A stretch of DNA of 36,146 nt from Candidatus Omnitrophota bacterium (GCA_029563245.1 JAKQSG010000094.1:1-36146); one strand, 5' to 3'; numbered from the stretch's first letter, positions 4,021-36,146 are shown. Notes: generated by a model not told the origin, from the letters alone. Numbers and translations: made by a program.

Positions 4021-4023
4021 TTT

Positions 4024-6197: not shown

Positions 6198-6266
6198 CTG
6201 GCCTCCTTAAAAGGATTGTAAGATGAAGTGGCTTAACTGTTAGCTAAACTAAAGATATAGTATCAA

Positions 6267-6295
6267 AATGTAACATATTTTTAGGCAGAGGTCAA
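6267..6295 (-). promoter_or_regulatory. Sigma70-like promoter for the sugar ABC / glycosidase operon
   Basis: On the coding strand: TTGACC (6290-6295), a 17-nt spacer, then TACATT (6267-6272). This sits about 70 nt upstream of the SBP start, in the 104-nt gap after the PilZ gene. Confidence 0.45.
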
Positions 6296-6301
6296 GTTTT
6301 T

Positions 6302-6988: not shown

Positions 6989-6989
6989 C

Positions 6990-7346
6990 TTATAACCCTT
7001 TCCACCATTGATCTCTTAATTCTTTAAATGAATTATCGCGTATATACTCGGCTAACTTATCCCTATCAGCATCATTAATCCTGTTAAAATGAAGGCCGTA
7101 GGTATTCCTGCCCTCATATTCGCTCTGCCAGGCGACATGCGCTCCCAGATTAAGAGATAACGCATCTGAAATAGCCAAACTTATATTGGAGAAAACCTCC
7201 GAAAAAAGATTCTTAGACATCGTAAGCCGTACGCCGCTTAAACTTATATCCTCCACAGTACAAAGAAGCGGAGAAATGCGGTTTTCAATTGTAATCTCGG
7301 CTTCCCTACCAACCCTCATCCTGGGATAAACCCTGCGTTCTTCCAT
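6990..7346 (-). CDS. Single PilZ-domain protein (putative c-di-GMP receptor), paralogous to the N-terminal half of the next gene
   Basis: 118 aa with RRVYPR (RxxxR) and DISLSG (DxSxxG). It shares YGL(L/H)F..(L/I)(T/N)D.D(K/R)..., and a C-terminal WW motif, with domain 1 of ORF 6302-6988. A promoter-like element lies immediately upstream. Confidence 0.88.
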   Translation of the reverse strand: MEERRVYPRMRVGREAEITIENRISPLLCTVEDISLSGVRLTMSKNLFSEVFSNISLAISDALSLNLGAHVAWQSEYEGRNTYGLHFNRINDADRDKLAEYIRDNSFKELRDQWWKGL

Positions 7347-22600: not shown

Positions 22601-25600
22601 GTAAAGACCAGCGATTCCTTTTATCTTCAGAATATCGCTATTCGTAATTACTCCATCCTCTTTAGGGCTTACGCCGATTAATTTTAGGGCCGCTGCGAAG
22701 GACCGATCCCCACCAGCCACGGAAGGTAGACCAATCGCTTGTTTATTCCGCAGCAGCCCGGTAAACGAAAACGCTTTCTTTAAGGCTAAAATAAAAGACC
22801 CCCGCTTTCTGCCGGGGCCTCTTTCTATTTTTACGTACCTCTTCCCCAAACTGACCCAACCGCCATCAAAATACCTCAAGAAGACTTCTAATTCCCATAG
22901 GCCGGGATTAGGAAGATAGATCTCATTGTTAAGATAATAATTGCCGTTAAAGAATATATTACCCCGGCAGAATAGCCTGGCCTGCAAAGGCACGCTGCCT
23001 CTTTGATCTCTTAGACGGTATAAAACCTTTGCCTCTATATTCCTTCCTGCCTCTCTATCTAGCCTGGAAACAGCCCTGATACGCTTTTCTGACCCGAAAC
23101 AATCAAGCATAAGCCTGGTATTCCAGGTGCGGTTCTTTAACCCAAGAGTTACCCTGGCTGCCTGTGTCAAACTTGTTTTATAGGTCTTACCCCGGGCAAG
23201 CGAAACTGAGTTAATACTAACAAAACTGGCCAAGTTGCCGGCAGTAGACAGGATTATTCTTTCTGTGGCTTTTCTTATCATGGACAAAAATAGTTCCCTT
23301 CTCCTCCCTGGCCTGCCGTGTAACTTATTCAGGTATATCCTTGAACGCAAAGCGCTTATCCCCATGCTAAAAGCACTGCTCCAGAAACTCATGGTTGATG
23401 TCTCCGGGGAATCAATCCAGAGGATAGGCATCTCTCTTAATCTATACCTTAATGCAGCAGCCCTGCCCAGCCATTCAACATCTCCGGCAAAACCGTAGAC
23501 GAAATCATGGTTAAAACTTACCTTAAGACATCCTGATTCATCGGCTGAAAGAATACCTATCGGAGAGATGCGTTTTATGACCTTTCTACGGAACGCCTTA
23601 AAAGAACGCTGATTATCGCGGATAAACCTCAAATCTTTATATAAAAACCTAACCCAGGCATTAAAACCTACCGTCCCCAAACGGCGGGTGAATTTACGAA
23701 GAGAGACTATCGCTCCGGGTTTACGTATAGAACCCCAAACAAGATCATCCCCCTTATTTACTATACCTTCTAATAATAGCCCGGTCAGCCCCAGGTGGGC
23801 CGAAGGGTCTCCATCGGTATACATTATGATATCCGCCCCCTGGTCTGCGGCTATCTGCATTCCGGCAGCCAGTGCGCCGTGCTTGACCGACCCCATGGCT
23901 ACCTTATCCTCCGCCGACAAGGAATAAAGGCAGATTTTATCCCGCAAATCAACATATTCGCTGCGGCTTAGAATCCCCCGCAATACATCCACTGTCTTCT
24001 GCTGCCCCTGCCCACTGTCATCTCCGTCGTTAACAAATATAAAACGGCCTTTTACCAGAGGGTTCACAGAGAGAAATTCCCTGAAAAACTGCTCTGTCTT
24101 TAACTTAAACCATCCCCTTCCCAGTGGAGGATCCGGGTATTTAGCCTGCCCCCTCCAAAGAGAAATGCATACGGCTATCTCTAAAGGATCGTGGATATTG
24201 AAGACTGTCAGATAAGAATCGATGAACATTCTCGCTTCAGGAAGGATTCCTTTGCTTGGATCAGATACTAATTCTTTAAGAAAAACAGCAATATCTTTAG
24301 CATCGTTACGGTTTAGGGAAATGGCTAATGCCTTACTCAACAAGGCGCATATTGCCTGGTCGGAAAGCACCGCCCTGATTTCAGGGTCGCGATAAGTATC
24401 GACTGCAAATAAATGCAAGAGATTAAGCTTGGCGTCTATTGTTTTACATTCAGAGAAAATAATACCTAAGCGGCTGGCTCTATCCTCTGATAAAAGAACG
24501 CGCCTTAGGCTTTCTCCCGTTAATAAATCAACAGCCTCTCCCCACCAGGGCTTATTAAAATCCTGCATCATCCTTGAAAATTCCAGCATTAAGGCCTCAA
24601 CCGCATCAGCCTTTTCGCTGGAGTTATTAAGAAGGTCTAGGCTCAGGATAAACCAACGGGCAGCATCCCATCCAAACGTACCTATTCCCAGCACATTGGG
24701 TATCGATTCTAATTCCTTTCTACTAAGTTTATTCTTGGTATAAAGCTGATAGCCTTTTAACATAGCGATAAGATTCTCTCGGCTGTATTTCCTACCAACA
24801 CCCTTTCCTCCGGCAAGCAGGGTATTCTTAAACTCCCCTATGCGGGGCTGGCTTGAGCGCGCTTTTTCCCAGTCAAAAAGCGCAATTACAGAATCACCAT
24901 CCCATTTTACATTGCCTAAACTTAAATCACCGTGCAGGATAGAAGAAGGCAGGGAATTATAAGATACATCCGACATCTCCTTAAGAAGATGCTGCATCTG
25001 CTCCTTGATAAACCTGGCAAAGTTTAGAAAGATAAGTTCTCCTTCTTCAAGAAAAGGATTATTCTGCAACTTCTTCTCCAAATTTTCAAAGTCAGAGAAA
25101 GCAGTGATAATATCCTGCGGAGATAATTCCGGCTTGCTGCCGCTAGCCCTGAAGCCCAAGAAAGCATTGTGCAAGAGCGCCGTTAACCTTCCAAGGCTAT
25201 AAAAGTGCTTTGGGGTAGCCTGACTAAAATTAAGTTCTATACCGGATGAAATGTAGTCTTCTAACGTATAATACCAGCTGCCTATCTTAGTAAAATATTC
25301 CCCGCCCCTATTTTTATAAACCAACGGCACAGGAATACCAAAAGATATAGCCCTTTGTATGACCGAAATCACAAATTCTGCTTTTCTACGGCTATCGGTA
25401 ATAAACTTTAAAACAAAGTCACCCTTAGGCGCATGGATTAAAACCGGCCTTCTATTCTCGATTCCGCCCCGTAGAAACTCGTATGTGACCTGCGAAACTT
25501 CACTGGCTCCTATATCGTATTCGGATAGCGCTATGGACAATTTCTCTTCAATATCAACCTGTTCCGTGCGTAGATCGTTTACTTTTGTAGAATGGCTGCG

Positions 25601-28600
25601 CCAGAGTGCAACTTTATTATTAATAGGCTCAGCCTGGGGTTGATAAGGGACAAAGGCATTTCTGTAAACCCTATTGTATTTCTGGGGTTCTCCAGATTCA
25701 TTAAGAAAAGCGAATTTTTCAATCTGCCCGCTTCTAACAATATCAAACATCGGCTTGCCTTTTTTAAATCCGAATTCAGGTATTTCATCTGCTGGCTTGA
25801 CTAAACGTATCAAAGGAATATTCTTGTATCTTGGGTTGGGGATAAACTCAGGGTTGCCGTCTTTACCTTTAACCACCCAGTAAGGAGCGCCATTATGGCG
25901 TTTGATATATTTAAAGCTTGATTGGGCGTTGGTTGAGACCCAGTCAGTCATTACAAATGGAGTGTTACCTATATTAATAGTGATATGTTGATATCCCGGA
26001 GGAAATAAAACATGATCTCCGGGTTCAGCAAAGACTGCCATCACATCCTCTATTTCTTCGTATCCCGGTTTATCGATTGAACTGTCTTCTTCGGGATAAT
26101 TGTGCCTTACCTTAAAAAGCAGGAATATATTACGGCCGTAGTTATTTTCGTAAACCTCGGGAAGGTTAGTCTTGTGATGATGGCCTTCGGTACGGATATA
26201 TTCTTCATAGCGCACACCGTTTAAAAATGCGGGTATTGTTCCGGCAGGTAAAACAGTGACATCGGGCCTTAAGTTATGCGCTTTGATACTATCCCAAAGC
26301 TTCTGGTCATCCCAATAAGGACCCTGTTGGCCGCAGTAAAGTACCTCGTTAGGGTCGCCGTATCGGGTTAAATCTGGCTGCTTAGTAATGTTGCCTTGGC
26401 TGTCTGTATATTCATAAGCCATCATCAGGCTCTTCCACAGGGGAGCTTGGGACATGGTATTTGCTCCGAAGGTCTTATACCAAGGTTGAACCCAAATTCT
26501 TGCCTGCGGACCATAGAGCACTTCCATATCCTTAGGGTCAACAAAACAAGGCAACCCAACCTGTGCCGATAAATCAAGCGTTTTAAAGAACCTGGCTGTA
26601 TCGGCTAAAGCCTTAGCCTCGTCAAACTCATAATTAATTAAATGGCTTTTTAGCTCATGGTAAAATATCTTTTTCTGAAGGTATCCGGATAATTCAAAGA
26701 AATACGGATGGATGTAAATAGTTCTGGCAGCAATATCGCAGGCAGCGACGTTTCCTTGCGTAAAGTTGAAATCATTTGTGCTAAGTAAACGCCAGACGTA
26801 TAAGGAAGGCGGTGCGCGGCCTAAAATGACTTCCAACTCTTCCAAAAGCTTAATTATAACTTCTTCTCTGCCTCGGATTAACTCCGAGGAGAATTTTCCT
26901 CTTAAATTAAACCCTGCCACTTCCACTGCCCCTGACTGCCAGTTCTTACCAAATTTATTAACAGATGCTTCCTGCACTTTAGCAGAGACAGGGAGAGGAT
27001 AAGCATTAGGATTGTTAATATTGGGCGTATCCTTTAACAGCTGCGGGAAGAAACCGCTTGAGTTATATTCCTTAAAAAGATACCTGAGCCTCAAAGATAA
27101 AATCTCGGCTATATTAGGATGAGCATTCTTTGTCTGATAGTACGCCGCTTCCAGGAAAAGAACAACCCCTCTTATCCCGAGATACTCTTCCAAAGCTAAG
27201 AATATATCTTCAAAGACGATGCCAAGGCCTTCGTTAATGGCGATGATTACCTCCGATTCCCTTATTTTCTGAATTAACCCGCCGAAAGAGGCTATCTCTA
27301 TCCTGATCATACCTCCGTCTGGCTTAATCTTGAAATCTTTTAGAGTTACGAAACGGGGGTACAGCCTTCTCTCAAAAAGGCTATCAAAAGCTATAATACA
27401 CTGCATAAGATTTATTTCGTCGTCCTTAATATCCAACAGCTCGGATAAGAACCTCTTATCCTCATCGCTTAAAGACTGAAAGCCTATCTTAGAAAGCTCC
27501 CTCTCCATGGACAAACGATGGCTTACGTAAAGGTGGCTGTCCAACCCAAACCTCTCTGCGATTACCCTGTAAACATCCTGAGCAGGAGTATAATATCTGA
27601 TCAAAGATTTGGCGATCTCTCTCTTTAGGCGCATCATATCTTCCCCGGACAAATCCTTCCCCAGATACCTGCCCGTAGACAATACCAGCTGCAGGGAAGG
27701 AGTAGAGAACATTTCCCTTATCTTCAATCCCACATAATCCCCTTCAGATATAGAGATATACGATGCCCCCCTCAAGACAATAGGGTCGTAAGAATGGCTC
27801 AACAGCCGATACTCCTGCATCGCTCTCTTGAATCCGATTCTTGCCAAGACTAATTCAGCATTCTTTATCTGGATACCCGAATCAATTAAATACCTTGCCA
27901 CCAGTTTTCTGGATTCCCCCCTGACTTTCTCCCCTCCGGCAAAACAAACCTCAAGCCCTGATATTCTTCTCCCGGAAAGATCCCTAAAATCCTCCTCTAA
28001 TTCCTCATAATCAGTCTCTGCCCTCAAATCCTTGACATTTTTAGTGATGTCAAAAGAAAAATCTTCCCTTATCCTGAAAATGTCCTTAACAGAATTATCA
28101 ATATATTTCCTGAGTTCCTCCTCCCAGCCATATTTGTTTTTATTGCAAGCTTTGGCCCAGTCACAGACCCTCTCCCTGGCCTTCTGTAATTCACATATAA
28201 ATAAATCAGCCTGCTCTGGTATGAAATCATGCCACTTAAAAACCTGGCCCAAGTCCAATGCGCCTACACGTCCCACCGAAGGATCGTAGCCGTAATTCTC
28301 AGGCTTAATATCGAAATTTATTATTCCTCTTAATATCTTGGCCCTGATACTTAATAACCAACAGTCTATAAGTAATTTGGCTTTGTCTAAATCACCCTCC
28401 TCTATAGCCTCGGCTAGAATGCCGTGGCATCTTCTTGCCTTAAGATCAAAATCCCACAATCCTTCCTCGAATAACACTGAAACAAATTTCTGCACTACTG
28501 CCCTTTTTACCGTTTCATGGCTTACCCTTCCTTCCTCATCAACCACATTTATTTCCAGGTCATCGAAAGTAAGGTATCTTATAGCTAAATGCCCGTGGTA

Positions 28601-31600
28601 TTTCTGGGCCAGCTGATAACTTTCCATGGCATTAACCGTTATCCCGGGAAGACGAAACGCTATCTTCGCGGGAGCTTTTAAATCTTTAACAATAATCGTG
28701 TTGTCTCTATTTAGATAAATGTGGTTTGTATCCGCTCCCGCGGTTCGGCTGCTGAATACTTCCTCTTTCAGGCAATTCCTGAAGGCCATACCGATCATTT
28801 CTATGATTTTATCTACGTCTATGCCCGCCTCACGGAAATCATCCGCAAACTGATGCAGACTGAAATGTCTGTACATCTCTACCAAACAACCTGCTAACCT
28901 GTTGTAACCATCCAAGTAAGAAAAGCCGAGGCTATAACCTCTTTTATAAAATACCTGCCGAAAATACCTTGTTTCTCCCGCATGCAGAGCATAAAGATTA
29001 ACTATCTCCCGCCCGCTGTTAAAATCGTATCCCGTAATCACTACCTTATCCGGCATAACGCCGCTAAAGTAAACCTTTAGATGAGGGAGAAACTCATAAA
29101 CCCTCCTTCTTAACTCTTCGGGAAGATGCAAGTCTTTTTCGACTAAGGATATTTGCTCAACCTCTTTGCGTACTTTATTTATAAAAACCTGAGAATCCAA
29201 GAATTTTCTTAGTTTGTCAAAACCTTTTTCTTTTATGTAGGCATTCATTTCCAAAAGCGCGGATTCAGTAAAATTTATACCCTCCCCAAGCGCTACAACC
29301 GAAGGAGGGGCATCCGCAGGCGGACCGGATGAAAATACTTTGATCCCCTGGATACCTGTAACCGCCAGGTCATTCCCTTCCTGCCCAAACTCATCCCCGA
29401 AATAAATTATATTCTGCGGCTGTATACCGTATTTTGCGTATATATATTTCAGAGCCTCAGCCTTATTGATCCCTGCCGGGGTTACGGCCAGGGTAGTTTT
29501 TCCTTCTAGAACAACCTCAATCCCGAATATGCCCTTAGACTCAAAGAGATCCCTTATATGTTGAGCCAAAGCCTGCCTGATCTTCAATGAAAGCTCCGTA
29601 TCCTCCTTTAATTCCTCTATCCTCACAACAACGCGGGTAATTCTATCCTCAAACAGAAACTTCTCAGAAGGTATTGATTCTTCCAAAGAAACCATAGCTA
29701 TACACTCTCTGATAATAGAAAATACCTTAGCCTTATCCAAAGGAAGCCCTTTCCGATAAACAAGGTCCTCCCGTCTCACCCCGTTCTCAAAATAAAACAC
29801 CTGGGTACTGGAATTTGCAGCAATAATGAAATTATCGCTATGGTCCTTAAAGGGCTCTACTATCCTGGCGATATTGGCCTCATCAAGCATATTGCCGGTA
29901 TTGATACCCACCAGCATCCCCTTATCCAGCAATCCCCGGACTTGATTAATCATGGAGTCCTCTAACGGTTTTCTGCGAAGGGCGAGCGTCCCGTCGATAT
30001 CAAACATTGCAATATTTCGGGGTCGTGCCTTAATCGGGCCAACCTTTACTGAATCACCCACGAGCTGAAATGTCCTCTTCTTAATCTCATCGATTGCTTC
30101 CAGAGCAAAGTTGGTAACCTTCTGCTCTTCAAGCGATCTTATAGCCAAAAGGTCCTCGTCTTTTCTGCCCTCAAACTCCGCAGCCTTAACCTCCGCCTGA
30201 GTATAGAAACGCATCTTAGGTTCTGTTCCCGAAGGCCTGATAATAAGCCATGAACCATCTTCAAATATAAATTTATAACCCGGCTCATTAAACTTAGGCT
30301 CTGTAATATCTACGCCGCGATGCGCCTCTTTTATAACTTTCCCTGCTATTGTAGCCTTGCTTGCGGACCTGGCTTGACGGTAAATTTCTTCGACTTTCTT
30401 TATCACCTTATCGCGGTCAACCTTCGCCGTAGGCCCGGCAAGGCTATACTGTTCATTCGCGCCCACAAAACATCCGAAAGTCCTCCATAATTTTATATAT
30501 GCATCCCATATAGAAAATCCCTTTGAACGCACATATTCAAATAGCTCCAGCATTACAACCGCAGCCAAAAGGCCGTCTTTCTCCAGAGTGTGCCCTCCTA
30601 AAGAAACTCCGTTTGACTCCTCAAAACCACCGAGTATCCTTGCGCGGGCAAAAGAAAATATCTCTTCTATTGCCTGCTTCATCGATGGTATATGCATATC
30701 CCCTATAATATTGCCCAGGCCTTCTTTGTAACGGTCTCCGTAAGATTCGAAATCAAAGGCATAACTATTAAACCAATCCCTCATAATAATCTCATCTAAG
30801 GATTCTTCCGCTATCTTGCCAAAGCCTACCGGAGGCCTTCTTACATGAAAACCGTAGGCACGCGCTATCCTCTCAATCAAGTCAGTAGTAACCCAGGTAG
30901 CCATTACAAACCCGTCCCTCATTAACCCCTGGTATGCCTTGCCAAGCTTTCCTTCAGAAGCCAAATCGTGCATAAATTCAATGCGGGACCATAATAAAAA
31001 TGCCCATAAATCGTTTGCCTTCATTACCTGCCAATTGCCCTGGTTATCCTTAAAAGCTATGCCGCATCTGTCTGCGTCAGGATCAGTAGCCAATACTATA
31101 TCAAAACCTTTTTCAGTAGCATATTCAATTGCCGGGCCTAATACACGTTTGTCTGCCGGATCCGGAGAAAGCGGCCTGCCATTACCATCTACAAGCCTGT
31201 GATCAGGAAAATTACCGTTAAACCCTTCGTGCTCGGAAAATACGGAATATTCATATCCCAAGTCCTTTAGAATCCCAGGCAAGACTGCCTGCCCCGTACC
31301 AAAAACAGGGTCATAAAGAACCTTTAACGTGGTGGGCTTCCCCGGAACTAATAGGTGTGACCTAATCTTAGAGGAGAAATACTTATCAAAATCTTCATCC
31401 GGCCCTAACATCATAACCGGCTTATTGTCCTGGCCTAAAGGCAGTGTATTGATATCATCAACGCTATCCATAGAAACCAGAGCTATCTCTCTTATAATAG
31501 CTAACCTCTGAACCCCAAATAACTGCGCACCAATCTCATTGCCGATCTTAAAACCGGTATCGCTCTTAGGATTATGGGAAGCGGTAATATAAATATAGCA

Positions 31601-34600
31601 ATACGCTGCCTTATGAAGCACGGCCAGCGCGATCTCCGATATAGGCCGGGGTTCATTAAACCAATAAACCCTTATTCCCTTCTTAAGTAAAATATCCTTA
31701 GATATCTGCGCTATCTCCCTTGACCCCTTACGCACGTCAAAACCAACCACAACCCCCCTCTCCTGCAAGCCGTTTTTAACTATATAGTTTGCCACAGCCA
31801 AAGTATAACGGCCGGCTACATCCTGATTAATCCTGTTGGGACCGGGCAAATAAGGAATTAGTTCCCCATCCAGGTCATTTTCCAATCCGCGCTTACCGCG
31901 TATACCGGCAGTCCCAAACTCGACCTCTTCTCGATAACTCTCCATAAGCAGATCCCAACGCTTATTTTCTATCTCTCTAACCAACTCATTCTTTAAATAA
32001 GGATTATACCCTCTATCGCCCAGGTTATCGCTTACGCTTAAAATAGCAAAACCTACTTCACGCAAAGTAATCTTGCCTTCGCGGTGCATCTGAGATAAAT
32101 ACCTATAAAATTCGCGCAGCTGTTGGGGTATCTGCCTTTCTCCGCGCAGCACAAGAAAAACCTCACCTACAAAACTACCTTTACCCTTGCCGGTAAAAAT
32201 ACCGGTGGCGCTCTCCTCATTATCCTTGGGTACATAATAAAAATCCGGTGCCTTTTTATTTTCATTAATATCGTAAAGATTGGCTAGATTAATAAAATAA
32301 GAGGCATCCCTGAAAACCTTTTTCTCCTTAAATCCTTTTTCTAAGAAATCGAGGACGTCGAGACGGAATTGCCTACCTATTAATATATAGACTTCCAATT
32401 CTGCCAAGCCTGCGTCAAGTTCTTCATCGAAATCAGCCAGGTCGCTTAATATTCTAGGGGTATGCTTATTTTCGTGAGCAAGTATAGCAAATAGTATCGC
32501 TGCCTTTGCCCGGAAGAAATGATTAAGCTTTAACCGCGAAGCGGCAGGCTTGAACGACTCTTCTATCACCTCTTCAAATATAGAATCTAAATAAATAGTA
32601 TTGTTTAATATACAAGCGAATCTTCCGAAATTACGAGAGATAGCAATATTAATACCCCTTCCTGCAAGTTCATCTAAAGAAATAGATAATATGCGCCTTA
32701 AGAGACCTGTATAGCAGGCGCCTGGCCCCAGATATATCCTGCCTTTATCCTTTCCTATCAAATCAATTAACTGGTCTTTTATATCTAAAAGCCTATAAAC
32801 CTTACCGGTTACATTAGCCTGCGCAAATATATCAGCCTCATTCTGAGCAAGATGATTATGGTAGCCGATAAAAACACTCTTCCCCGCAGCCCCATGATTA
32901 GTTATTATCTTCTTTACTGCGTAGCTAACCAACGAAGCAATAGAAACCTTAAACTCCTCAGGAAACTCCGAGGGCAAAGCAACCGATTTTGTCACGAATA
33001 AGCTCTGCGGAGGCATTAATCGCTTTTTATCATTTATATATTTTGGATCAATGCCATAACCCTTATCTAAGAATTTTACGGCATCAGCCGCTTTTATCCC
33101 GGTCTCAAAAGGCTTTAACCCTCTTGCTAATTTCGCATGGATTACTCCGGAAAATACCCTCCCCCAAGATAAACCCAGCTCCTTAACCAATACATAAGCC
33201 GCAGCCAGTAATGTGCCCCCGGAAGAAGTTTCATCGTCAATAACAAAGGCCCAACAATCACGAAGGTCTACCCCGCCTACTGATAATATTTTCTGCTTGT
33301 CTTCACCTAAGATATAAGGCGGTATGCGTACTTCCCTTGGACTTATCCTGACCTTATCCATATACCCAGAATATACCTTGATTCCCGAAGCCGGATAATT
33401 ATCCTTGATATATTTCTCTAAAAGCTGTGCGGCCTCCCGGACATAATTGGAAGCTCCGTCATCGGGTGATAATATCAAGATAGGGTGGCGGATAAACTCT
33501 TCAAGCTCTCCCTTAAGCCCTAACGTGCTATGAAGCCAATCGAACATCTTCTCGGCCACCTGCACAAATGCATTCAGGTTATAAAGGCCGATGCCTGAAA
33601 AATCGATTCTACCGCTACCATTACCGTAATGCACATTTAAAACAAAATGATTATCCGTCAAGGCATTGATCACTTTAAGCATAGTAAAAGCACTTACGCC
33701 CTCTCCGTCCTTAAACACCTTATCCTGCCTGGAATACCCCGCATAAGTATTAATCAACGAAATGCTGGCAACCCCTTCACGGCGTAAAGCTGCAAGCATA
33801 AGCCATAATTCCGCAATATCGAGATTATTCTCAGTACTATGCAACAATACTATATTCTTACCCTTTACCCCTTCGGGAATATTTATAGTCCAGGCAAAAG
33901 GATTATTGAATTCCTTGCGGATACCGACCCTTTTCGGGGTAGCATTAATGACCTCGGCAGCTCTGATTGCATCATACTCCAGACGGCTATGCTGGTATAA
34001 AATCATATCTACTTGCACAGAATCGCTTTTTCCACTTACCTTCGCCTCAGAGCCCGAATAAGGGCTTGAGGCAGATCTCTTGTCAGAATAAACCACAGTA
34101 TCATAGAAGATAGCAAGTATATCCTCCAGGATATCTACTCCACGAGGACTATCTAAAGAAAGATTGATTTTATCTGCACCGTATCTTCTTAAAGAATCCA
34201 TCAACAAAACTACCTCCACAAGATCATCCGCTGATTCAATTTTATAGGAGACATCTACCTGCTTGCCCTTTAGCGCTAGGGGATTAAGAATTCTTAAATA
34301 TATTTCGCCGTCAGGAAATTTAGATGTTGCCACTCTAATCTGGACATCCTCAGCCTTGACGTTTAATTTAGAAGGAAGGTCTACAGAAATCCATCCGCAG
34401 CTGTCTCCCCAGGGAGAACGGAAAGAACCTTTACCATCCAAGACAAATAAAACAGCATAATCCATCTTTTGAACATCCGCTTGGGGGAACAAATCCTTCA
34501 GGCTCTCTTGCATATCATAAAGGCGCATGATCCCGTCTTCTCCGGAACTATCATAGCTACGGTTCCAGATAGACGGAGAGAAATAAATCTTCCCTCCTTC

Positions 34601-36146
34601 CGGATTCACCTGTTTCTTTAAAGACTCCGCGTGTTTCTCCAATTCCCCGCGGTAGATCAAAATGTTCATGGAAAAAACTATATCAGCCGGGCCGAAATTA
34701 TCCTTATCCGCATCCCCAAAGACAAATACTACATCCTGGTCATTACGGTTTTTTTCTGCCTCAATCAAAGCCGCGAAATCACGGTCTATTCCAACTACCG
34801 TCAAATCAACAAATCCCTCTTTGCGGTAATATTCCGCCATCCCTCTGCTAGCCTCTCCGTATTGGCATCCTATATCCAAGATACGCAGGGCGCTCTTCTT
34901 CGGCCAGGGAGAAAGATCTACTGACTTGACAATCTTTGCAATCTGCTCTGATTGTGCGCTTGAAATATCTTTAGAGATTAACGGGATAATTTTTCTAACG
35001 ATTAAACTACGTACCAATAAGGAATCATCATTCAATGCAGATAAAAGCAGCGCGGAGAGTATATCATCCGGTTTTAAGGCGAATAACTCTTTCAACATCA
35101 AGGCAGACTTTGCCCTGAGCCAAGCATCCTTTTCTCCCTGCAGTATAGAGATTAGAAGAGGAATCCCTTCTTCAGAGAATTGGGTAAAGAAGGCTATCGC
35201 CCTTTCCTTCTCTCCCTGGTTAGCCTTACGACTTGAGCCAATATCCTCTATACGGTAGTAAGAATTACGGACTATATCCTTTAATAAGAGCGCCGTGTCA
35301 TCCCGGGCTTTTTCTTCATCAATTATGCCTCTTGCGATATGTGAAATTAATTCATGATAGAGGATTTTCAACTGTAATTGCTCCAAGGCGAGCCCCTCGC
35401 CTAATAGGTCTTCAGAAGAAATAGTGAAGAAATATGGATTTAGGTATACAGTCCTGGTGGGGATATCGCAGGCAGCGACCTTACCTTTTGTAAGCCTTGA
35501 ATCGTTGGTAATGATAAGTGTCCAGTTGGCAATCTCTGGAGGAGCACGGCCTAAAACATGCTCTAATTCTGCCAGGCGTTTAAGAATAACTTCGGCCTGG
35601 GCTTTAGTTAATTCCTTAGGCAGCTGGTTTTCTACCTTAAAACCTTTTACCTCTATCGCCTGTGAACTCCAGCCTGCCCCAAGCTGACCCTCTGATACCC
35701 TATTAGCCGCATCAGGTAATGGTAACGGGTAAGTACTTAAGGGAAATCCGCTTACAGACTTATTTAACTCCGGAATTACTACTGAAGGGCGCCCGTCAAA
35801 GTACACTGCCTCCCATCTCCTCCCGTCATGGATGAGTACTCCGGCATTCCTGCCAAAGCCGGGTTTAGGGAATAAATTCACATTAACCACCCGGGCACCA
35901 GGGCTAAAACGTATATCATAACCTTCCTTATGCCCCACTACCATAGGTAGAAGATATATTTCATTTATACGGCTTAGCTCTCCGTCAAAACAAGCCCACA
36001 TAAGGCCTCCCGGCATATAATCTGTTTCTCCGTATAATTTTGGCCCAAAATGGGCGTTGCCACGGTTAAAGATTACATCCGAAAAATCATTATTTTCTAC
36101 TCCCCTAACCAACCGGGAATTAAACTCTGCGGCTATATGCTCCAGC
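19574..36146 (-). CDS. N-terminal part (at least 5,523 codons, 5' end possibly outside the window) of the same giant mosaic protein: repeated HELxSH module, SAM-MTase, PRPP-synthetase-like, phosphohexomutase, HAD-IIB, kinase-like, cupin PGI, APH-type kinase, GT2, HD-GYP-like, GHKL-like, metallophosphoesterase, M50 N-terminal half
   Basis: The ORF track gives 19574-36112 with a TTG start. The same frame has no stop from 36112 to the window edge (LEHIAAEFNSR-LVRGVENN...). Motifs I translated: ILDIGCQYG, YAGYSRQDK, VIDDETSSGGT, TASHNP/DPDADR/GFEESNG/RPSGTEPK, FDIDGTL, FDIKPENYG, TEGHHH...EVY plus PPGYQHITIN, HGDLSLGNV, FVNDGDDSG/YTDGD, ADRPYRKG, GDLHG/GNHD/GHTP, MHEFAH. Confidence 0.9.
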   Translation of the reverse strand, partial: LEHIAAEFNSRLVRGVENNDFSDVIFNRGNAHFGPKLYGETDYMPGGLMWACFDGELSRINEIYLLPMVVGHKEGYDIRFSPGARVVNVNLFPKPGFGRNAGVLIHDGRRWEAVYFDGRPSVVIPELNKSVSGFPLSTYPLPLPDAANRVSEGQLGAGWSSQAIEVKGFKVENQLPKELTKAQAEVILKRLAELEHVLGRAPPEIANWTLIITNDSRLTKGKVAACDIPTRTVYLNPYFFTISSEDLLGEGLALEQLQLKILYHELISHIARGIIDEEKARDDTALLLKDIVRNSYYRIEDIGSSRKANQGEKERAIAFFTQFSEEGIPLLISILQGEKDAWLRAKSALMLKELFALKPDDILSALLLSALNDDSLLVRSLIVRKIIPLISKDISSAQSEQIAKIVKSVDLSPWPKKSALRILDIGCQYGEASRGMAEYYRKEGFVDLTVVGIDRDFAALIEAEKNRNDQDVVFVFGDADKDNFGPADIVFSMNILIYRGELEKHAESLKKQVNPEGGKIYFSPSIWNRSYDSSGEDGIMRLYDMQESLKDLFPQADVQKMDYAVLFVLDGKGSFRSPWGDSCGWISVDLPSKLNVKAEDVQIRVATSKFPDGEIYLRILNPLALKGKQVDVSYKIESADDLVEVVLLMDSLRRYGADKINLSLDSPRGVDILEDILAIFYDTVVYSDKRSASSPYSGSEAKVSGKSDSVQVDMILYQHSRLEYDAIRAAEVINATPKRVGIRKEFNNPFAWTINIPEGVKGKNIVLLHSTENNLDIAELWLMLAALRREGVASISLINTYAGYSRQDKVFKDGEGVSAFTMLKVINALTDNHFVLNVHYGNGSGRIDFSGIGLYNLNAFVQVAEKMFDWLHSTLGLKGELEEFIRHPILILSPDDGASNYVREAAQLLEKYIKDNYPASGIKVYSGYMDKVRISPREVRIPPYILGEDKQKILSVGGVDLRDCWAFVIDDETSSGGTLLAAAYVLVKELGLSWGRVFSGVIHAKLARGLKPFETGIKAADAVKFLDKGYGIDPKYINDKKRLMPPQSLFVTKSVALPSEFPEEFKVSIASLVSYAVKKIITNHGAAGKSVFIGYHNHLAQNEADIFAQANVTGKVYRLLDIKDQLIDLIGKDKGRIYLGPGACYTGLLRRILSISLDELAGRGINIAISRNFGRFACILNNTIYLDSIFEEVIEESFKPAASRLKLNHFFRAKAAILFAILAHENKHTPRILSDLADFDEELDAGLAELEVYILIGRQFRLDVLDFLEKGFKEKKVFRDASYFINLANLYDINENKKAPDFYYVPKDNEESATGIFTGKGKGSFVGEVFLVLRGERQIPQQLREFYRYLSQMHREGKITLREVGFAILSVSDNLGDRGYNPYLKNELVREIENKRWDLLMESYREEVEFGTAGIRGKRGLENDLDGELIPYLPGPNRINQDVAGRYTLAVANYIVKNGLQERGVVVGFDVRKGSREIAQISKDILLKKGIRVYWFNEPRPISEIALAVLHKAAYCYIYITASHNPKSDTGFKIGNEIGAQLFGVQRLAIIREIALVSMDSVDDINTLPLGQDNKPVMMLGPDEDFDKYFSSKIRSHLLVPGKPTTLKVLYDPVFGTGQAVLPGILKDLGYEYSVFSEHEGFNGNFPDHRLVDGNGRPLSPDPADKRVLGPAIEYATEKGFDIVLATDPDADRCGIAFKDNQGNWQVMKANDLWAFLLWSRIEFMHDLASEGKLGKAYQGLMRDGFVMATWVTTDLIERIARAYGFHVRRPPVGFGKIAEESLDEIIMRDWFNSYAFDFESYGDRYKEGLGNIIGDMHIPSMKQAIEEIFSFARARILGGFEESNGVSLGGHTLEKDGLLAAVVMLELFEYVRSKGFSIWDAYIKLWRTFGCFVGANEQYSLAGPTAKVDRDKVIKKVEEIYRQARSASKATIAGKVIKEAHRGVDITEPKFNEPGYKFIFEDGSWLIIRPSGTEPKMRFYTQAEVKAAEFEGRKDEDLLAIRSLEEQKVTNFALEAIDEIKKRTFQLVGDSVKVGPIKARPRNIAMFDIDGTLALRRKPLEDSMINQVRGLLDKGMLVGINTGNMLDEANIARIVEPFKDHSDNFIIAANSSTQVFYFENGVRREDLVYRKGLPLDKAKVFSIIRECIAMVSLEESIPSEKFLFEDRITRVVVRIEELKEDTELSLKIRQALAQHIRDLFESKGIFGIEVVLEGKTTLAVTPAGINKAEALKYIYAKYGIQPQNIIYFGDEFGQEGNDLAVTGIQGIKVFSSGPPADAPPSVVALGEGINFTESALLEMNAYIKEKGFDKLRKFLDSQVFINKVRKEVEQISLVEKDLHLPEELRRRVYEFLPHLKVYFSGVMPDKVVITGYDFNSGREIVNLYALHAGETRYFRQVFYKRGYSLGFSYLDGYNRLAGCLVEMYRHFSLHQFADDFREAGIDVDKIIEMIGMAFRNCLKEEVFSSRTAGADTNHIYLNRDNTIIVKDLKAPAKIAFRLPGITVNAMESYQLAQKYHGHLAIRYLTFDDLEINVVDEEGRVSHETVKRAVVQKFVSVLFEEGLWDFDLKARRCHGILAEAIEEGDLDKAKLLIDCWLLSIRAKILRGIINFDIKPENYGYDPSVGRVGALDLGQVFKWHDFIPEQADLFICELQKARERVCDWAKACNKNKYGWEEELRKYIDNSVKDIFRIREDFSFDITKNVKDLRAETDYEELEEDFRDLSGRRISGLEVCFAGGEKVRGESRKLVARYLIDSGIQIKNAELVLARIGFKRAMQEYRLLSHSYDPIVLRGASYISISEGDYVGLKIREMFSTPSLQLVLSTGRYLGKDLSGEDMMRLKREIAKSLIRYYTPAQDVYRVIAERFGLDSHLYVSHRLSMERELSKIGFQSLSDEDKRFLSELLDIKDDEINLMQCIIAFDSLFERRLYPRFVTLKDFKIKPDGGMIRIEIASFGGLIQKIRESEVIIAINEGLGIVFEDIFLALEEYLGIRGVVLFLEAAYYQTKNAHPNIAEILSLRLRYLFKEYNSSGFFPQLLKDTPNINNPNAYPLPVSAKVQEASVNKFGKNWQSGAVEVAGFNLRGKFSSELIRGREEVIIKLLEELEVILGRAPPSLYVWRLLSTNDFNFTQGNVAACDIAARTIYIHPYFFELSGYLQKKIFYHELKSHLINYEFDEAKALADTARFFKTLDLSAQVGLPCFVDPKDMEVLYGPQARIWVQPWYKTFGANTMSQAPLWKSLMMAYEYTDSQGNITKQPDLTRYGDPNEVLYCGQQGPYWDDQKLWDSIKAHNLRPDVTVLPAGTIPAFLNGVRYEEYIRTEGHHHKTNLPEVYENNYGRNIFLLFKVRHNYPEEDSSIDKPGYEEIEDVMAVFAEPGDHVLFPPGYQHITINIGNTPFVMTDWVSTNAQSSFKYIKRHNGAPYWVVKGKDGNPEFIPNPRYKNIPLIRLVKPADEIPEFGFKKGKPMFDIVRSGQIEKFAFLNESGEPQKYNRVYRNAFVPYQPQAEPINNKVALWRSHSTKVNDLRTEQVDIEEKLSIALSEYDIGASEVSQVTYEFLRGGIENRRPVLIHAPKGDFVLKFITDSRRKAEFVISVIQRAISFGIPVPLVYKNRGGEYFTKIGSWYYTLEDYISSGIELNFSQATPKHFYSLGRLTALLHNAFLGFRASGSKPELSPQDIITAFSDFENLEKKLQNNPFLEEGELIFLNFARFIKEQMQHLLKEMSDVSYNSLPSSILHGDLSLGNVKWDGDSVIALFDWEKARSSQPRIGEFKNTLLAGGKGVGRKYSRENLIAMLKGYQLYTKNKLSRKELESIPNVLGIGTFGWDAARWFILSLDLLNNSSEKADAVEALMLEFSRMMQDFNKPWWGEAVDLLTGESLRRVLLSEDRASRLGIIFSECKTIDAKLNLLHLFAVDTYRDPEIRAVLSDQAICALLSKALAISLNRNDAKDIAVFLKELVSDPSKGILPEARMFIDSYLTVFNIHDPLEIAVCISLWRGQAKYPDPPLGRGWFKLKTEQFFREFLSVNPLVKGRFIFVNDGDDSGQGQQKTVDVLRGILSRSEYVDLRDKICLYSLSAEDKVAMGSVKHGALAAGMQIAADQGADIIMYTDGDPSAHLGLTGLLLEGIVNKGDDLVWGSIRKPGAIVSLRKFTRRLGTVGFNAWVRFLYKDLRFIRDNQRSFKAFRRKVIKRISPIGILSADESGCLKVSFNHDFVYGFAGDVEWLGRAAALRYRLREMPILWIDSPETSTMSFWSSAFSMGISALRSRIYLNKLHGRPGRRRELFLSMIRKATERIILSTAGNLASFVSINSVSLARGKTYKTSLTQAARVTLGLKNRTWNTRLMLDCFGSEKRIRAVSRLDREAGRNIEAKVLYRLRDQRGSVPLQARLFCRGNIFFNGNYYLNNEIYLPNPGLWELEVFLRYFDGGWVSLGKRYVKIERGPGRKRGSFILALKKAFSFTGLLRNKQAIGLPSVAGGDRSFAAALKLIGVSPKEDGVITNSDILKIKGIAGLYRSVFDMKGLSGDLDHLIRHIYRGRIIAVEIAEILNLSRRDIDIIAIAFTLYDLGKIFNSEIWELISSDKKISRDENDPQRKLINAHAGYSVEIINELQLDVSEEVLSLVLNHHHPQAIKDAKLRFLGELIYWADIAEIMLADRPYRKGSELNLSVEDLILFLNRQKNNNALLGIKNNEAIFQATVAVANDETFRALYSYPELSVWAIIIIANLYSQNDSSHQSYPAHMNPAGVDSLVRNPSEGEFGNIIDYLGGINALMREGLVLGMDKIAIDYLLPFPAEVVNGILRINPNTLRGPPEQLRAIFSGHEFYHLVNPGLSEERVRERTLEYLRDNHLLSSHIKFLEDNSIGLRPDLGWLNYLKRNRTEEKRRVESQIFIQDCLNLMRIWNNADGLNSDKQKILTEAFVERLKEDGYLIFSGGMYILPEAVFALDGLIEGKDLERLRELINALSINVGRHGDDLGKIVIFFNKNHNNLYICAMDKGKGFVTSNAHPFKNHAFKGLAGLKIYSKGRVWDQDKETWSDSNIKGGVSGSSVFCMYSLQTDSELPRLNEFIKAVRLGVYQDRAVVDLRKAPGDFEIIIIGDLHGRVNKFDALLNHRRRITVEGKEILEDSVLEKIRNKKAALFILGDAIHATPDVRVEMGDFIKWAKTGVKRQDLEGLVVDLYSNPDSSIALMRRIMDLKISNPDNFYYILGNHDLINYHWSKSGPCGFIIDQSIPYRKALEDRFGSKYLDLYRKFVEASPVLLIADNLVAAHAGPVKGRFKLQKIRNLSTTNLKNSMLVNLLMGRFCEYSLEGEEVFSYSQDDLSSFLEALGYDSKSCWFIVGHTPTQNGFFKRVLFNHYLISGCEREFGYFSYRNGNGEFVGVQDEGDAVKMHAGVYFSKFNEGFTLFKISQVPVKLHWSFFFALGLAAGNGFLALAFLFSIFTLVTMHEFAHIKSAAKYGIGATQILLTALGGVATLESCGFTPRQEKRIAFAGPLFNLSLGVVLFCPCFSLLLLQHGILD
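19577..19646 (-). other. Frame-change junction: 70 nt in which both giant reading frames are open; contains coding-strand T5 (19609-19613) and T4 (19621-19624) runs
   Basis: Frame A stops at TAG 19574-19576. Frame B (-1 relative to A) is open from just after TAA 19647-19649. One added T in the T4 run gives ...GVVLFLSLFFIAPFTAW.... A -1 slip on the U run gives ...LFCPCFFIAPFTAW.... Either product is a plausible continuous transmembrane helix of an M50 domain. Confidence 0.7.
26578..27001 (-). repeat. Copy 2 of the same intragenic module
   Basis: YPLPVSAKVQEASVNKFGKNWQSGAVEVAGF...LGRAPPSLYVWRLLSTNDFNFTQGNVAACDIAARTIYIHPYFF...IFYHELKSH...FDEAKALADTARFFKTL. HELKSH is at 26642-26659. Confidence 0.8.
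35272..35731 (-). repeat. Copy 1 of an intragenic ~140-150-aa protein module (YPLP...EV.GF...LGRAPP...TND...G.VAACDI..RT.Y..PYFF...YHEL.SH...DE.KA..DTA)
   Basis: Translated by hand. HELISH is at 35339-35356. By eye it is about 40% identical to copy 2. The two copies share an almost identical nucleotide core, atatcgcaggcagcgac, encoding VAACDI. Confidence 0.8.

What the first reader, a model, noticed from the sequence alone, without database searches (positions are those of the whole stretch)
29330..31930. A complete phosphohexomutase directly followed by a HAD-IIB phosphatase inside the giant ORF
Seen in sequence: all four alpha-D-phosphohexomutase signature loops are present, in order.
- EFGTAGIRG
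- ITASHNP (catalytic Ser codon at 31577-31579)
- LATDPDADRCG (metal loop, about 31064-31090)
- GGFEESNG (sugar loop, 30608-30631)
- IRPSGTEPKMRFY (phosphate loop, about 30211-30242)

About 70 residues later comes HAD motif I, FDIDGTL (29984-30013). A Cof/IIB-type C-terminal motif, YFGDEFGQEGNDLAV (about 29361-29405), follows.

Established knowledge: these motifs are diagnostic for PGM/PMM-type mutases and for HAD-IIB sugar-phosphate phosphatases.

Inference: a mutase plus a phosphatase in cis resembles the last steps of sugar-derived compatible-solute or glycoside pathways. The catalytic residues look intact, so these are probably active domains rather than relics.
Basis: partly seen in the sequence, partly recalled or inferred. 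Interest (0 to 1): 0.62.

Follow-up and report, generated by a model that had tools for sequence, protein, structure and literature searches.

The report
Two unrelated sugar-phosphate mutases fused
Inside a giant multi-enzyme gene of an uncultured Omnitrophota bacterium sits a conserved pair of intact sugar-phosphate enzymes, and the second one resembles a phosphomutase of a different fold rather than an ordinary phosphatase; enzyme-studded giant genes are already known in this phylum, so the pairing is the only new part.

Summary
Every quoted motif is in the minus-strand giant frame at the stated coordinates, and Pfam, NCBIfam and two structure models support both folds.

- **Mutase:** a complete four-domain alpha-D-phosphohexomutase. 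Its nearest free-standing relatives are the long (553-587 aa) bacterial "phospho-sugar mutases", at about 30% identity.
- **HAD-IIB domain:** it is not Cof-like. A profile built only from giant-protein copies best matches the Lactococcus lactis HAD-type alpha-phosphoglucomutase (PDB 4BND, E 1.5e-18). Eukaryotic-type phosphomannomutases come next. Foldseek ranks the model the same way.
- **Conservation:** the mutase-plus-HAD pair recurs in at least 11 Omnitrophota giant-protein fragments, down to 36% identity. Catalytic residues are kept and dN/dS is about 0.07-0.18. The neighbouring blocks are shuffled between relatives.

Most likely this is a membrane-tethered, cytoplasm-facing cassette that handles sugar 1-/6-phosphates and their bisphosphate cofactor. 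A mutase followed by a terminal phosphatase of a compatible-solute pathway is less likely. The chemistry of the HAD domain (mutase, bisphosphatase or plain phosphatase) is not settled.

Phosphoglucomutase domains in Omnitrophota giant proteins are already published, so this is a new variant of a known kind.

The parts
19574..36145 (-). Giant open reading frame (5523 aa, 5' end open at the contig edge) that holds the cassette. It has no hydrophobic segment before aa 5422. It ends in the first half of an M50 site-2-protease domain, which continues in the next frame (8088-19622).
29168..32953 (-). Conserved cassette (aa 1065-2326), collinear at 66-79% identity with giant ORFs of three species of the same genus. 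It contains an upstream module, the mutase and the HAD domain.
   Evidence: blastp against G001:C6, G006:C14, G003:C47
32081..32953 (-). Upstream conserved module of unknown function (aa 1065-1355). Invariant H-x3-H (AHENKH at 32462-32476; the second residue is E or Q in relatives) plus downstream E...E.E. It precedes this mutase type in all 8 fragments aligned.
   Evidence: no Pfam match for aa 1066-1382 (window 32000-32950); no PDB sequence match
31922..32080 (-). N-terminal helical extension of the long-type mutase (aa 1356-1408).
   Evidence: helices 6-49 of the model; aligned with the N-termini of 553-587-aa phospho-sugar mutases
31484..31921 (-). Phosphohexomutase domain I, with the FGTAGIRG loop and the catalytic loop TASHNPKSDTGFK (Ser1523 codon at 31577-31579).
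31037..31342 (-). Phosphohexomutase domain II, with the metal loop D1688-P-D-A-D-R.
30524..31036 (-). Phosphohexomutase domain III (with an insertion), ending in the sugar loop GGFEESNGVSLGGHTLEKDG. This loop is almost invariant across relatives.
30161..30523 (-). Phosphohexomutase domain IV with the phosphate loop RPSGTEP, followed by a long C-terminal helix.
30026..30160 (-). Fast-evolving linker between the two enzymes (aa 1996-2040). It is low-confidence or disordered in the model.
   Evidence: pN 0.36-0.42 in five of six pairs, against 0.12-0.20 in the flanking domains; pLDDT below 50 at model residues 674-684
29321..30025 (-). HAD-IIB domain of the APGM/PMM clade (aa 2041-2275). Motif I is D2049-x-D2051-x-T2053, motif II is T2083, motif III is K2228, and motif IV is G-D2251-x6-N2258-D2259. 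Conserved basic residues are R2057, R2168, K2180 and R2190.

Best explanation
The stretch encodes a conserved two-enzyme cassette inside one of the giant multi-enzyme ('Archaeovorin'-type) proteins of Omnitrophota.

- **Enzyme 1** is a long-type alpha-D-phosphohexomutase, of the PgcA/PGM2 size class. It has an intact phosphoserine, Mg2+ loop, sugar loop and phosphate loop.
- **Enzyme 2**, after a variable linker, is a HAD-IIB domain of the L. lactis alpha-phosphoglucomutase / eukaryotic-type phosphomannomutase clade. It has an intact DxDxT nucleophile, Thr, Lys and GD-x6-ND motifs, plus conserved basic residues at positions where PMM2 binds the distal phosphate.

Shown: the folds, the motif integrity, the conservation of the pair, the purifying selection and the clade assignment.

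Inferred:
- Both domains work on sugar phosphates (hexose 1-P to 6-P, possibly pentose 1-P to 5-P). [quoted passage not shown]
- The HAD domain acts as a second mutase of different sugar specificity, or as a hexose-bisphosphate-handling enzyme. It is less likely to be a terminal sugar-monophosphate phosphatase.
For: Fold and motifs:
- Four PGM_PMM Pfam domains and Hydrolase_3 all exceed their cut-offs. HAD-SF-IIB exceeds its cut-off.
- The catalytic loops align with solved mutases.
- The models match solved PGM/PPM structures (TM by target 0.73-0.84) and 4BND/PMMs.

Mutase subtype:
- The best free-standing hits are 553-587-aa proteins that NCBI names 'phospho-sugar mutase', at 192-207 bits.
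- The 460-490-aa GlmM-like gene of related genomes scores only 17-49 bits.

HAD clade:
- A profile of 8 giant-protein copies hits 4BND at E 1.5e-18 over its full length. PMMs follow at 1e-10 to 3e-6. The best Cof-type hit (7e-9) covers only the N-terminal 43 residues.
- Foldseek gives the same top hit, 4BND.
- FGDEF-x3-GND aligns with YFGDMTQPGGND of 4BND.
- R22, R133 and R155 (domain numbering) are invariant. K145 is kept in six of the eight copies. PMM2 uses Arg21, Arg123, Arg134 and Arg141 in its active site (PMC4263888).

Conservation:
- The pair is present in G001, G003, G006, P0154, P0006, P0272, P0005, P0007, P0010, P0008 and P0009, at 33-79% identity, with all motifs kept.
- dN/dS is 0.07-0.18 in both domains where dS is not saturated, and the linker evolves fast.

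Context:
- There is no hydrophobic segment in the 5420 aa before the M50 domain.
- ATP-, PRPP- and SAM-type enzymes share the same stretch.
- A sugar ABC importer and a GH2-like glycosidase lie downstream.
- A 2026 preprint reads giants that have TM helices but no signal peptide as cytoplasm-facing (10.64898/2026.06.07.730766).
Against: - No activity has been measured.
- Identity to 4BND is only about 20%.
- The single sequence misses Pfam PMM (19.7 against a cut-off of 22.4 bits) and matches the generic Hydrolase_3 and S6PP models better.
- The PMM/APGM clade also contains true phosphatases: ISN1 IMP-nucleotidase, which ranks among the PMMs, and PMM1 acting as glucose-1,6-bisphosphatase (PMC11404074).
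- The same HAD type occurs in other giant ORFs without an adjacent mutase, so the coupling is not obligatory.
- The cap loop carrying the PMM2 Arg134 equivalent is shortened here.
- The N-terminus of the gene is missing. West-Roberts et al. predicted such domains to be extracellular, while doubting that prediction themselves. Topology is therefore an inference.
- The giant frame is interrupted downstream by a frameshift.
Confidence: 0.6

Rival explanations
1. The mutase supplies a hexose-1-phosphate. The HAD-IIB domain is a sugar-phosphate phosphatase that finishes a compatible-solute or glycoside pathway, in the manner of trehalose-6-P, sucrose-6-P or mannosyl-3-phosphoglycerate phosphatases.
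For: - Hydrolase_3 and S6PP are the best Pfam matches of the isolated domain.
- All phosphatase-competent HAD motifs are present.
- GT2 and other glycosyltransferase domains occur in this giant protein and in related ones.
- Relatives in the same clade include real phosphatases.
Against: - The Cof and SPP subfamily models are far below their cut-offs.
- T6PP and Cof-type structures rank only from about place 42 in Foldseek, behind 4BND, the PMMs and ISN1.
- No OtsA-, SPS-, GpgS- or MpgS-type synthase was detected in either giant frame.
- The flanking blocks are shuffled between relatives.
- The conserved basic residues match the distal-phosphate site of PMMs (PMC4263888).
Confidence: 0.22
2. 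A pentose or nucleoside-salvage reading. The HAD domain is an ISN1-like nucleotidase. The PGM2-type domain is a phosphopentomutase (ribose-1-P to ribose-5-P). The PRPP-synthetase-like domain about 400 aa upstream turns ribose-5-P into PRPP.
For: - The best PDB sequence hit of the mutase is a Thermococcus phosphopentomutase (9ix8, E 2e-16).
- The PGM2 subfamily is annotated as phosphopentomutase / Glc-1,6-BP synthase (PMC9426568, Table 1).
- ISN1 ranks third in Foldseek for the HAD model and matches the profile at E 2e-8 over its full length.
- A Prs-like domain lies at aa 753-1006. It stays collinear with the cassette in G003, and P0154 begins with its C-terminal part.
Against: - No nucleoside phosphorylase domain was detected.
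- Prs is not next to the cassette in G001 or G006.
- The profile prefers 4BND (an alpha-PGM) over ISN1 by ten orders of magnitude.
- The Prs-like domain scores 130 bits against an equivalog cut-off of 296.
Confidence: 0.1
3. The domains are non-catalytic remnants or sugar-phosphate-binding modules that serve only as scaffold or sensor parts of the giant protein.
For: - One relative (P0273) has Ile in place of the catalytic Ser.
- Others have NP changed to NE, NF, NM or NL.
- The mutase is well below every NCBIfam equivalog cut-off.
Against: - In this window and its ten closest relatives, every catalytic residue of both domains is intact.
- dN/dS is 0.07-0.18.
- The sugar loop is nearly invariant down to 32% identity.
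Confidence: 0.04

Closest known systems
Long-type bacterial 'phospho-sugar mutases' (553-587 aa; the size class of B. subtilis PgcA and eukaryotic PGM2/PGM2L1, CDD subfamily cd05799 as listed in PMC9426568)
   Same: - The four-domain alpha-D-phosphohexomutase fold.
- An N-terminal helical extension before FGT.G.RG.
- The catalytic loop TASHNPK.D.G.K, the metal loop DPD.DR, the sugar loop GFEES.G and the phosphate loop RPSGTEP.
- These are the best free-standing hits, at 27-31% identity and 192-207 bits.
   Different: - This copy is embedded in a protein of more than 5500 aa.
- It has insertions after the FGTAGIRG loop and in domain III.
- It is always preceded by a roughly 290-aa H-x3-H module.
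- I assigned the subfamily from nearest relatives and length class, not from a curated model. NCBIfam has no model that it reaches.
Lactococcus lactis alpha-phosphoglucomutase PgmH/APGM (PDB 4BND) and eukaryotic-type phosphomannomutases (PMM1, PMM2, parasite and fungal PMMs)
   Same: - The HAD-IIB core and cap.
- FDIDxTL, the TQ strand after motif II, the GxxK motif III, and YFGD-x6-GND-xPV.
- Basic residues aligned with PMM2 Arg21 and Arg123 and with the Lys/Arg141 position.
- Top hit by both profile (E 1.5e-18) and fold (E 7e-16).
   Different: - About 20% identity.
- A shortened cap loop that lacks the Arg134 region.
- The single sequence is below the Pfam PMM cut-off.
- It is fused behind another mutase instead of being a free dimeric enzyme.
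- Its activity is unknown.
Giant multi-enzyme proteins of Omnitrophota ('Archaeovorins', West-Roberts et al. 2023, bioRxiv 10.1101/2023.11.21.568195; the long-protein catalogue in bioRxiv 10.64898/2026.06.07.730766)
   Same: - Small Omnitrophota genomes, 0.7-2.5 Mb among the 41 searched, with ORFs of thousands to tens of thousands of residues.
- HEAT repeats, TM anchors, and embedded PGM/PMM, isomerase, kinase, methyltransferase and HAD domains.
   Different: - Those papers list PGM/PMM (PF02878-80) and HAD_2 (PF13419) as frequent domains.
- In the text I searched, they do not describe a fixed mutase + Hydrolase_3 / PMM-like HAD pair or the nature of the HAD.
Mammalian PGM2L1 (glucose-1,6-bisphosphate synthase) and PMM1 (IMP-stimulated glucose-1,6-bisphosphatase) pair
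   Same: One member from the PGM2-type alpha-phosphohexomutase branch and one from the HAD-type PMM branch, both acting on the same bisphosphate cofactor (PMC8206387, PMC11404074).
   Different: - In mammals these are separate proteins.
- Here the two folds are in one chain.
- This is an analogy only. Nothing in the present data shows synthase or bisphosphatase activity.

Membership tests
alpha-D-phosphohexomutase superfamily | Four consecutive domains (Pfam PGM_PMM_I-IV) | tested here: met
   All four exceed their gathering scores (81.4, 60.3, 31.7 and 29.6 bits). The model superposes on solved PGM/PPM/PMM-PGM structures at TM by target 0.73-0.84.
alpha-D-phosphohexomutase superfamily | Catalytic phosphoserine loop T-[AG]-S-H-N-P | tested here: met
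   ITASHNP, with Ser1523 at 31577-31579. It aligns with the TASHNP loop of 9ix8, 1wqa and 1tuo. Kept in 13 of the 14 copies that cover the loop.
alpha-D-phosphohexomutase superfamily | Metal loop D-x-D-x-D-R, sugar loop (G)EE-x-x-G and phosphate loop R-x-S-G-T-E-P | tested here: met
   DPDADR, GGFEESNG and RPSGTEP are present and aligned to solved enzymes.
alpha-D-phosphohexomutase superfamily | Glc-1,6-P2-dependent phosphomutase activity | not testable with these tools
   Needs an enzyme assay.
PgcA/PGM2-type long phospho-sugar mutases | Closest to the 550-620-aa subfamily and not to the GlmM, ManB or PGM1 types; N-terminal extension | tested here: inconclusive
   The best free-standing hits are 553-587-aa 'phospho-sugar mutase' proteins at 192-207 bits. 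The GlmM-like genes of relatives score 17-49 bits. No curated subfamily model was available, and every NCBIfam equivalog cut-off is missed.
HAD superfamily, subclass IIB | Motifs I (DxDxT), II (T/S), III (K) and IV (GD...ND), with an alpha/beta cap inserted between motifs II and III | tested here: met
   D2049, D2051, T2053, T2083, K2228, D2251, N2258 and D2259 are invariant or nearly so. TIGR01484 HAD-SF-IIB scores 45.7 against 41.8. The model shows a cap between strands 71-75 and 174-179.
Cof-type HAD-IIB phosphatases (TIGR00099) | Score above the curated subfamily cut-off | tested here: not met
   45.3 bits against a cut-off of 137. Cof-type PDB entries match only the first 43-45 residues, or weakly.
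Eukaryotic-type PMM / L. lactis APGM family (Pfam PF03332) | Pfam PMM above the gathering score | tested here: not met
   19.7 bits against a cut-off of 22.4 for the isolated domain. The only free-standing word-search relative, P0289, scores 56.5.
Eukaryotic-type PMM / L. lactis APGM family (Pfam PF03332) | Nearest solved relatives by profile and by fold; GD-x6-ND spacing; basic distal-phosphate residues | tested here: met
   4BND is the top hit by profile (E 1.5e-18 without any free-standing sequence in the profile) and by Foldseek. R22, R133 and R155 are invariant and K145 is kept in six of eight copies.
Eukaryotic-type PMM / L. lactis APGM family (Pfam PF03332) | Bisphosphate-dependent mutase chemistry | not testable with these tools
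   Needs an enzyme assay. The clade also contains phosphatases (ISN1, and PMM1 acting as a bisphosphatase).
Omnitrophota giant multi-enzyme proteins (Archaeovorin type) | Omnitrophota origin; an ORF of many thousand residues with TM anchors, HEAT repeats and many unrelated enzyme domains | tested here: met
   - NCBI names the 76%-identical P0154 'Candidatus Omnitrophota bacterium'.
- Related genomes of 0.7-2.5 Mb carry ORFs up to 68,606 aa.
- The two frames of 5523 and 3844 aa are joined by a split M50 domain, and they carry HEAT_2, PAS and TM segments.

The most novel reading that the evidence does not exclude
A 'self-priming' mutase cassette.

In this reading the PGM2-type domain works mainly as a hexose-1,6-bisphosphate synthase or donor. 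It keeps the adjacent HAD-type mutase charged, because that enzyme's aspartyl-phosphate is labile and must be re-primed by the bisphosphate. Alternatively, the two domains form a synthase/bisphosphatase couple that sets the cofactor level, as PGM2L1 and PMM1 do in mammals.

The observed neighbours fit this reading. In relatives the same mutase type is followed:
- by this HAD domain in 11 fragments;
- by a second classical phosphohexomutase in P0011;
- by phosphoglycerate kinase in P0012. That enzyme makes 1,3-bisphosphoglycerate, the donor PGM2L1 uses.
Probability: 0.15. Interest if true: 0.6.

Novelty: new variant of a known kind. Interest (0 to 1): 0.42.

Why it matters
Giant Omnitrophota proteins are known to be studded with central-metabolism enzymes. 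What these embedded enzymes do, and where, is still open.

- **A defined unit to test.** This cassette is small (about 940 aa), conserved and free of transmembrane segments. It can be expressed and assayed directly.
- **An unusual fusion.** If the HAD domain is a mutase, the cassette joins the two evolutionarily unrelated solutions to alpha-phosphohexose mutation in one chain. None turned up in the literature searches run here.
- **A mechanistic question.** It would test whether one fold supplies or controls the bisphosphate cofactor of the other.
- **An annotation point.** NCBI names the 76%-identical P0154 simply 'HAD-IIB family hydrolase', which hides what it most resembles.

Tried and rejected
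- **Cof-type or compatible-solute phosphatase for the HAD domain.** Rejected as the best reading. The Cof and SPP models are far below their cut-offs. Profile and fold searches put 4BND and the PMMs first.
- **Bias from one free-standing PMM-like sequence (P0289) in the HAD profile.** Checked by rebuilding the profile from giant-protein copies only. 4BND stayed first at E 1.5e-18.
- **Free-standing relatives of the HAD domain.** The word-based search found only three Omnitrophota fragments and P0289. In 41 related genomes every match lies inside a giant frame.
- **The mutase as a copy of the housekeeping GlmM-like gene.** Rejected. That gene scores only 17-49 bits against the cassette, while long-type mutases score 192-207.
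- **The upstream H-x3-H module.** No Pfam or PDB sequence relatives were found.
- **Active-site geometry.** Model coordinates are not exposed to scripts. The claim that the basic residues form the distal-phosphate site rests on alignments only.

Full report
**What the window is**

The window is a whole 36,146-bp contig (C137) of an 884-kb genome bin that is 73% complete. Almost the entire minus strand from 8088 to the contig end is taken by two very long frames. One spans 19574-36145 (5523 aa, still open at the 5' end). The other spans 8088-19622 (3844 aa).

A Pfam M50 site-2-protease match is split across their 49-nt overlap. Profile positions 1-99 end the first frame, and positions 159-217 begin the second. 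The two frames are therefore one gene with a frame change.

NCBI labels the 76%-identical fragment P0154 "Candidatus Omnitrophota bacterium". The 40 nearest genomes are 0.7-2.5 Mb and carry open frames up to 68,606 aa. This is the giant-gene phenomenon described for Omnitrophota (10.1101/2023.11.21.568195; 10.64898/2026.06.07.730766).

**Checking the observation**

- EFGTAGIRG at aa 1409.
- ITASHNP at aa 1520, with the Ser1523 codon TCC at 31577-31579.
- LATDPDADRCG at aa 1685.
- GGFEESNG at aa 1839.
- IRPSGTEPKMRFY at aa 1969.
- FDIDGTL at aa 2048, 67 residues after the phosphate loop.
- YFGDEFGQEGNDLAV at aa 2248.

The family matches are far beyond chance. Pfam PGM_PMM_I-IV and Hydrolase_3 all exceed their gathering scores, and NCBIfam HAD-SF-IIB exceeds its cut-off. 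phmmer against PDB aligns the Ser, metal and phosphate loops with those of archaeal and Thermus mutases.

Two AlphaFold2 models support the folds:
- The 937-aa cassette has mean pLDDT 82.5. It superposes over the whole length of solved PGM, phosphopentomutase and PMM/PGM structures (TM by target 0.73-0.84, E down to 7e-27).
- The HAD domain alone has mean pLDDT 88.9.

**The mutase**

Its nearest free-standing relatives are 553-587-aa proteins that NCBI names "phospho-sugar mutase". They come from Clostridia, Bacteroidota and other groups, at 27-31% identity and 192-207 bits. The exhaustive representative search shows the same picture.

From my own knowledge, this size class, the N-terminal helices before FGT.G.RG...NR.N, the loop TASHNPK.D.G.K and the loop GFEES.G are those of B. 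subtilis PgcA and eukaryotic PGM2/PGM2L1. I could not test this against a curated subfamily model. No NCBIfam equivalog cut-off is reached.

The mutase is not a copy of the housekeeping enzyme. Thirty-nine of the 41 genomes searched have a match, and almost all of them carry a separate 446-496-aa GlmM-like gene that scores only 17-49 bits against the cassette. In this bin that separate gene was not found, and the giant-gene copy is the only PF02878 match. With 73% completeness, a gap in the assembly is the more likely reason.

Taken alone, the domain gives generic matches: Hydrolase_3 at 53 bits, S6PP at 25, and Pfam PMM at 19.7, just under its cut-off of 22.4. The Cof and SPP subfamily models are far below their cut-offs.

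I built a profile from eight copies of this domain, all taken from giant proteins, and searched it against PDB:
- The top hit is 4BND, the Lactococcus lactis HAD-type alpha-phosphoglucomutase, at E 1.5e-18 over its full length.
- Eukaryotic-type phosphomannomutases follow at 1e-10 to 3e-6.
- The P. falciparum IMP nucleotidase matches at 2e-8.
- The best Cof-type entry (7e-9) matches only the first 43 residues.

Adding the one free-standing relative found (P0289, Pfam PMM 56.5 bits) raises the 4BND hit to 3.5e-27. Foldseek on the model again puts 4BND first (7e-16), then the PMMs and ISN1. Cof-type and trehalose-phosphatase structures appear only from about rank 42.

Three details agree with this placement:
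- Motif IV, FGDEF-x3-GND-xPV, has the PMM/APGM spacing and aligns with YFGDMTQPGGNDYPV of 4BND.
- R2057, R2168 and R2190 are invariant in all eight copies. K2180 is kept in six of them and is lost in P0008 and P0009, which have a deletion there.
- By alignment through P0289 and 4BND, the first three fall at or near PMM2 Arg21, Arg123 and the Arg141/Lys position. PMM2 uses these residues for the outer phosphate of the bisphosphate (PMC4263888).

The loop that carries PMM2 Arg134 is shortened here.

**Conservation of the pair**

The block aa 1065-2326 is collinear with giant frames of three species of the same genus, at 66-79% identity. The blocks on either side are different or reordered. For example, the APH-GT2 block that lies downstream here lies upstream in G001 and G006.

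The mutase-plus-HAD pair also occurs in metagenomic giant-protein fragments:
- P0154, P0006, P0272, P0005, P0007 and P0010 at 45-76% identity.
- P0008 and P0009 at 33-42%. P0009 has about 130 extra residues between the two domains.

All catalytic motifs of both domains are kept in these proteins. The sugar loop FEESNG.S.GGH.LEKDG is almost invariant.

Between the four congeners, dN/dS is 0.07-0.18 in both domains wherever dS is not saturated. The 45-residue linker changes about two to three times faster at the protein level. The model is disordered there.

In 41 related genomes all 21 matches to this HAD type lie inside open frames of at least 1018 aa, and none is free-standing. Some of them have no adjacent mutase, so the coupling is frequent but not obligatory. 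The pair is present in 4 of 11 species of the genus.

**How it most likely works**

Shown: two intact, selected enzyme domains of defined folds and clades, kept together as a unit.

Inferred: both act on sugar phosphates. There is no hydrophobic segment in the 5420 residues that precede the M50 membrane domain. The same stretch carries PRPP-synthetase-like, SAM-methyltransferase, cupin isomerase, APH-kinase and GT2 domains. These need ATP, SAM and phosphosugars, which fits a cytoplasmic, membrane-tethered array. The 2026 preprint proposes that arrangement for giants that have TM helices but no signal peptide. West-Roberts et al. predicted such domains to be extracellular but doubted the prediction themselves. 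The N-terminus of this gene is missing, so its topology remains open.

The gene is followed by two PilZ genes, a CUT1-type sugar ABC importer and a GH2-like glycosidase. That again points to carbohydrate processing.

For the HAD domain I consider three chemistries:
- A second mutase with another sugar preference, for example mannose against glucose.
- A hexose-bisphosphate phosphatase like PMM1.
- A plain phosphatase.

I favour the first two together, at about even odds against the third.

One pattern suggests a cofactor link. The same mutase type is followed by this HAD domain in 11 fragments, by a second classical phosphohexomutase in P0011, and by phosphoglycerate kinase in P0012. PGK makes 1,3-bisphosphoglycerate, the phosphoryl donor of the PGM2L1 glucose-1,6-bisphosphate synthase (PMC8206387, PMC9426568). 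PMM1 degrades that bisphosphate (PMC11404074). This is a hypothesis only.

A pentose reading (nucleotidase, phosphopentomutase, PRPP synthetase) is possible but weaker. No nucleoside phosphorylase domain is seen, and Prs is not next to the cassette in G001 or G006.

**Novelty**

PGM/PMM domains in Omnitrophota giant proteins are already reported. West-Roberts et al. list them among Archaeovorin domains. The 2026 catalogue counts PF02878 in 88 of 916 long proteins and lists HAD_2 hydrolases. Earlier notes of this scan describe several such mutase modules in other genomes.

Relative to what I could search, two things are new: the fixed pairing with a Hydrolase_3-type HAD domain, and the finding that this domain belongs to the HAD-type phosphomutase clade. 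That makes a tandem of two unrelated mutase folds. I rate it a new variant of a known kind, of moderate interest.

**Limits**
- No enzymology has been done.
- Identity to characterised HAD mutases is low.
- Subfamily assignment of the mutase rests on nearest neighbours.
- Topology is inferred.

Noticed in passing
window 19574-19622: The Pfam M50 (site-2 protease) match is split. Profile positions 1-99 lie at the end of the 5523-aa frame, and positions 159-217 lie at the start of the 3844-aa frame. The two giant frames are therefore one gene of more than 9300 aa with a frame change.
   Followed up: partly
window 32081-32953: A conserved module of about 290 aa always precedes this mutase type (8 of 8 fragments). 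Its invariant residues are H160-x3-H164, E177, E185 and E187, and the residue after the first His is E or Q. It has no Pfam or PDB sequence relatives. It looks metal-binding, but a zincin protease role is doubtful where that residue is Q.
   Followed up: partly
window 35339-35731 and 26642-27001: There are two copies of a 'YPLP...HEL[IK]SH' module (aa 139-269 and 3049-3168), at 33-56% identity to copies in relatives. In P0154, G001 and G006 a copy starts within about 90 residues of the end of the HAD domain. The module may therefore mark cassette borders.
   Followed up: partly
proteins P0011, P0012 and P0273 (relatives, not in the window): In P0011 the same long-type mutase is followed by a second complete classical phosphohexomutase. 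In P0012 it is followed by a phosphoglycerate kinase domain. In P0273 the catalytic Ser is replaced by Ile.
   Followed up: partly
whole genome G000: The cassette mutase is the only PF02878 match in this 73%-complete bin. Almost all of the 40 related genomes carry a separate 446-496-aa GlmM-like gene. It is probably missing from the assembly, but I did not check synteny.
   Followed up: partly
window 15411-15734: The second giant frame has a weak NagB/6-phosphogluconolactonase-like match (Pfam Glucosamine_iso, E 0.009) with the motif GVGADGHFGFNFPG. This would be another sugar-phosphate enzyme in the same gene.
   Followed up: no
window 863-7346: Downstream on the same strand lie two PilZ-domain genes, a CUT1-type sugar ABC importer (a solute-binding protein and two permeases) and a GH2-like TIM-barrel glycosidase.
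   Followed up: partly
41 related genomes: All 21 matches to the APGM-like HAD domain lie inside open frames of 1018 to 68,606 aa. No free-standing copy was found in these genomes.
   Followed up: yes
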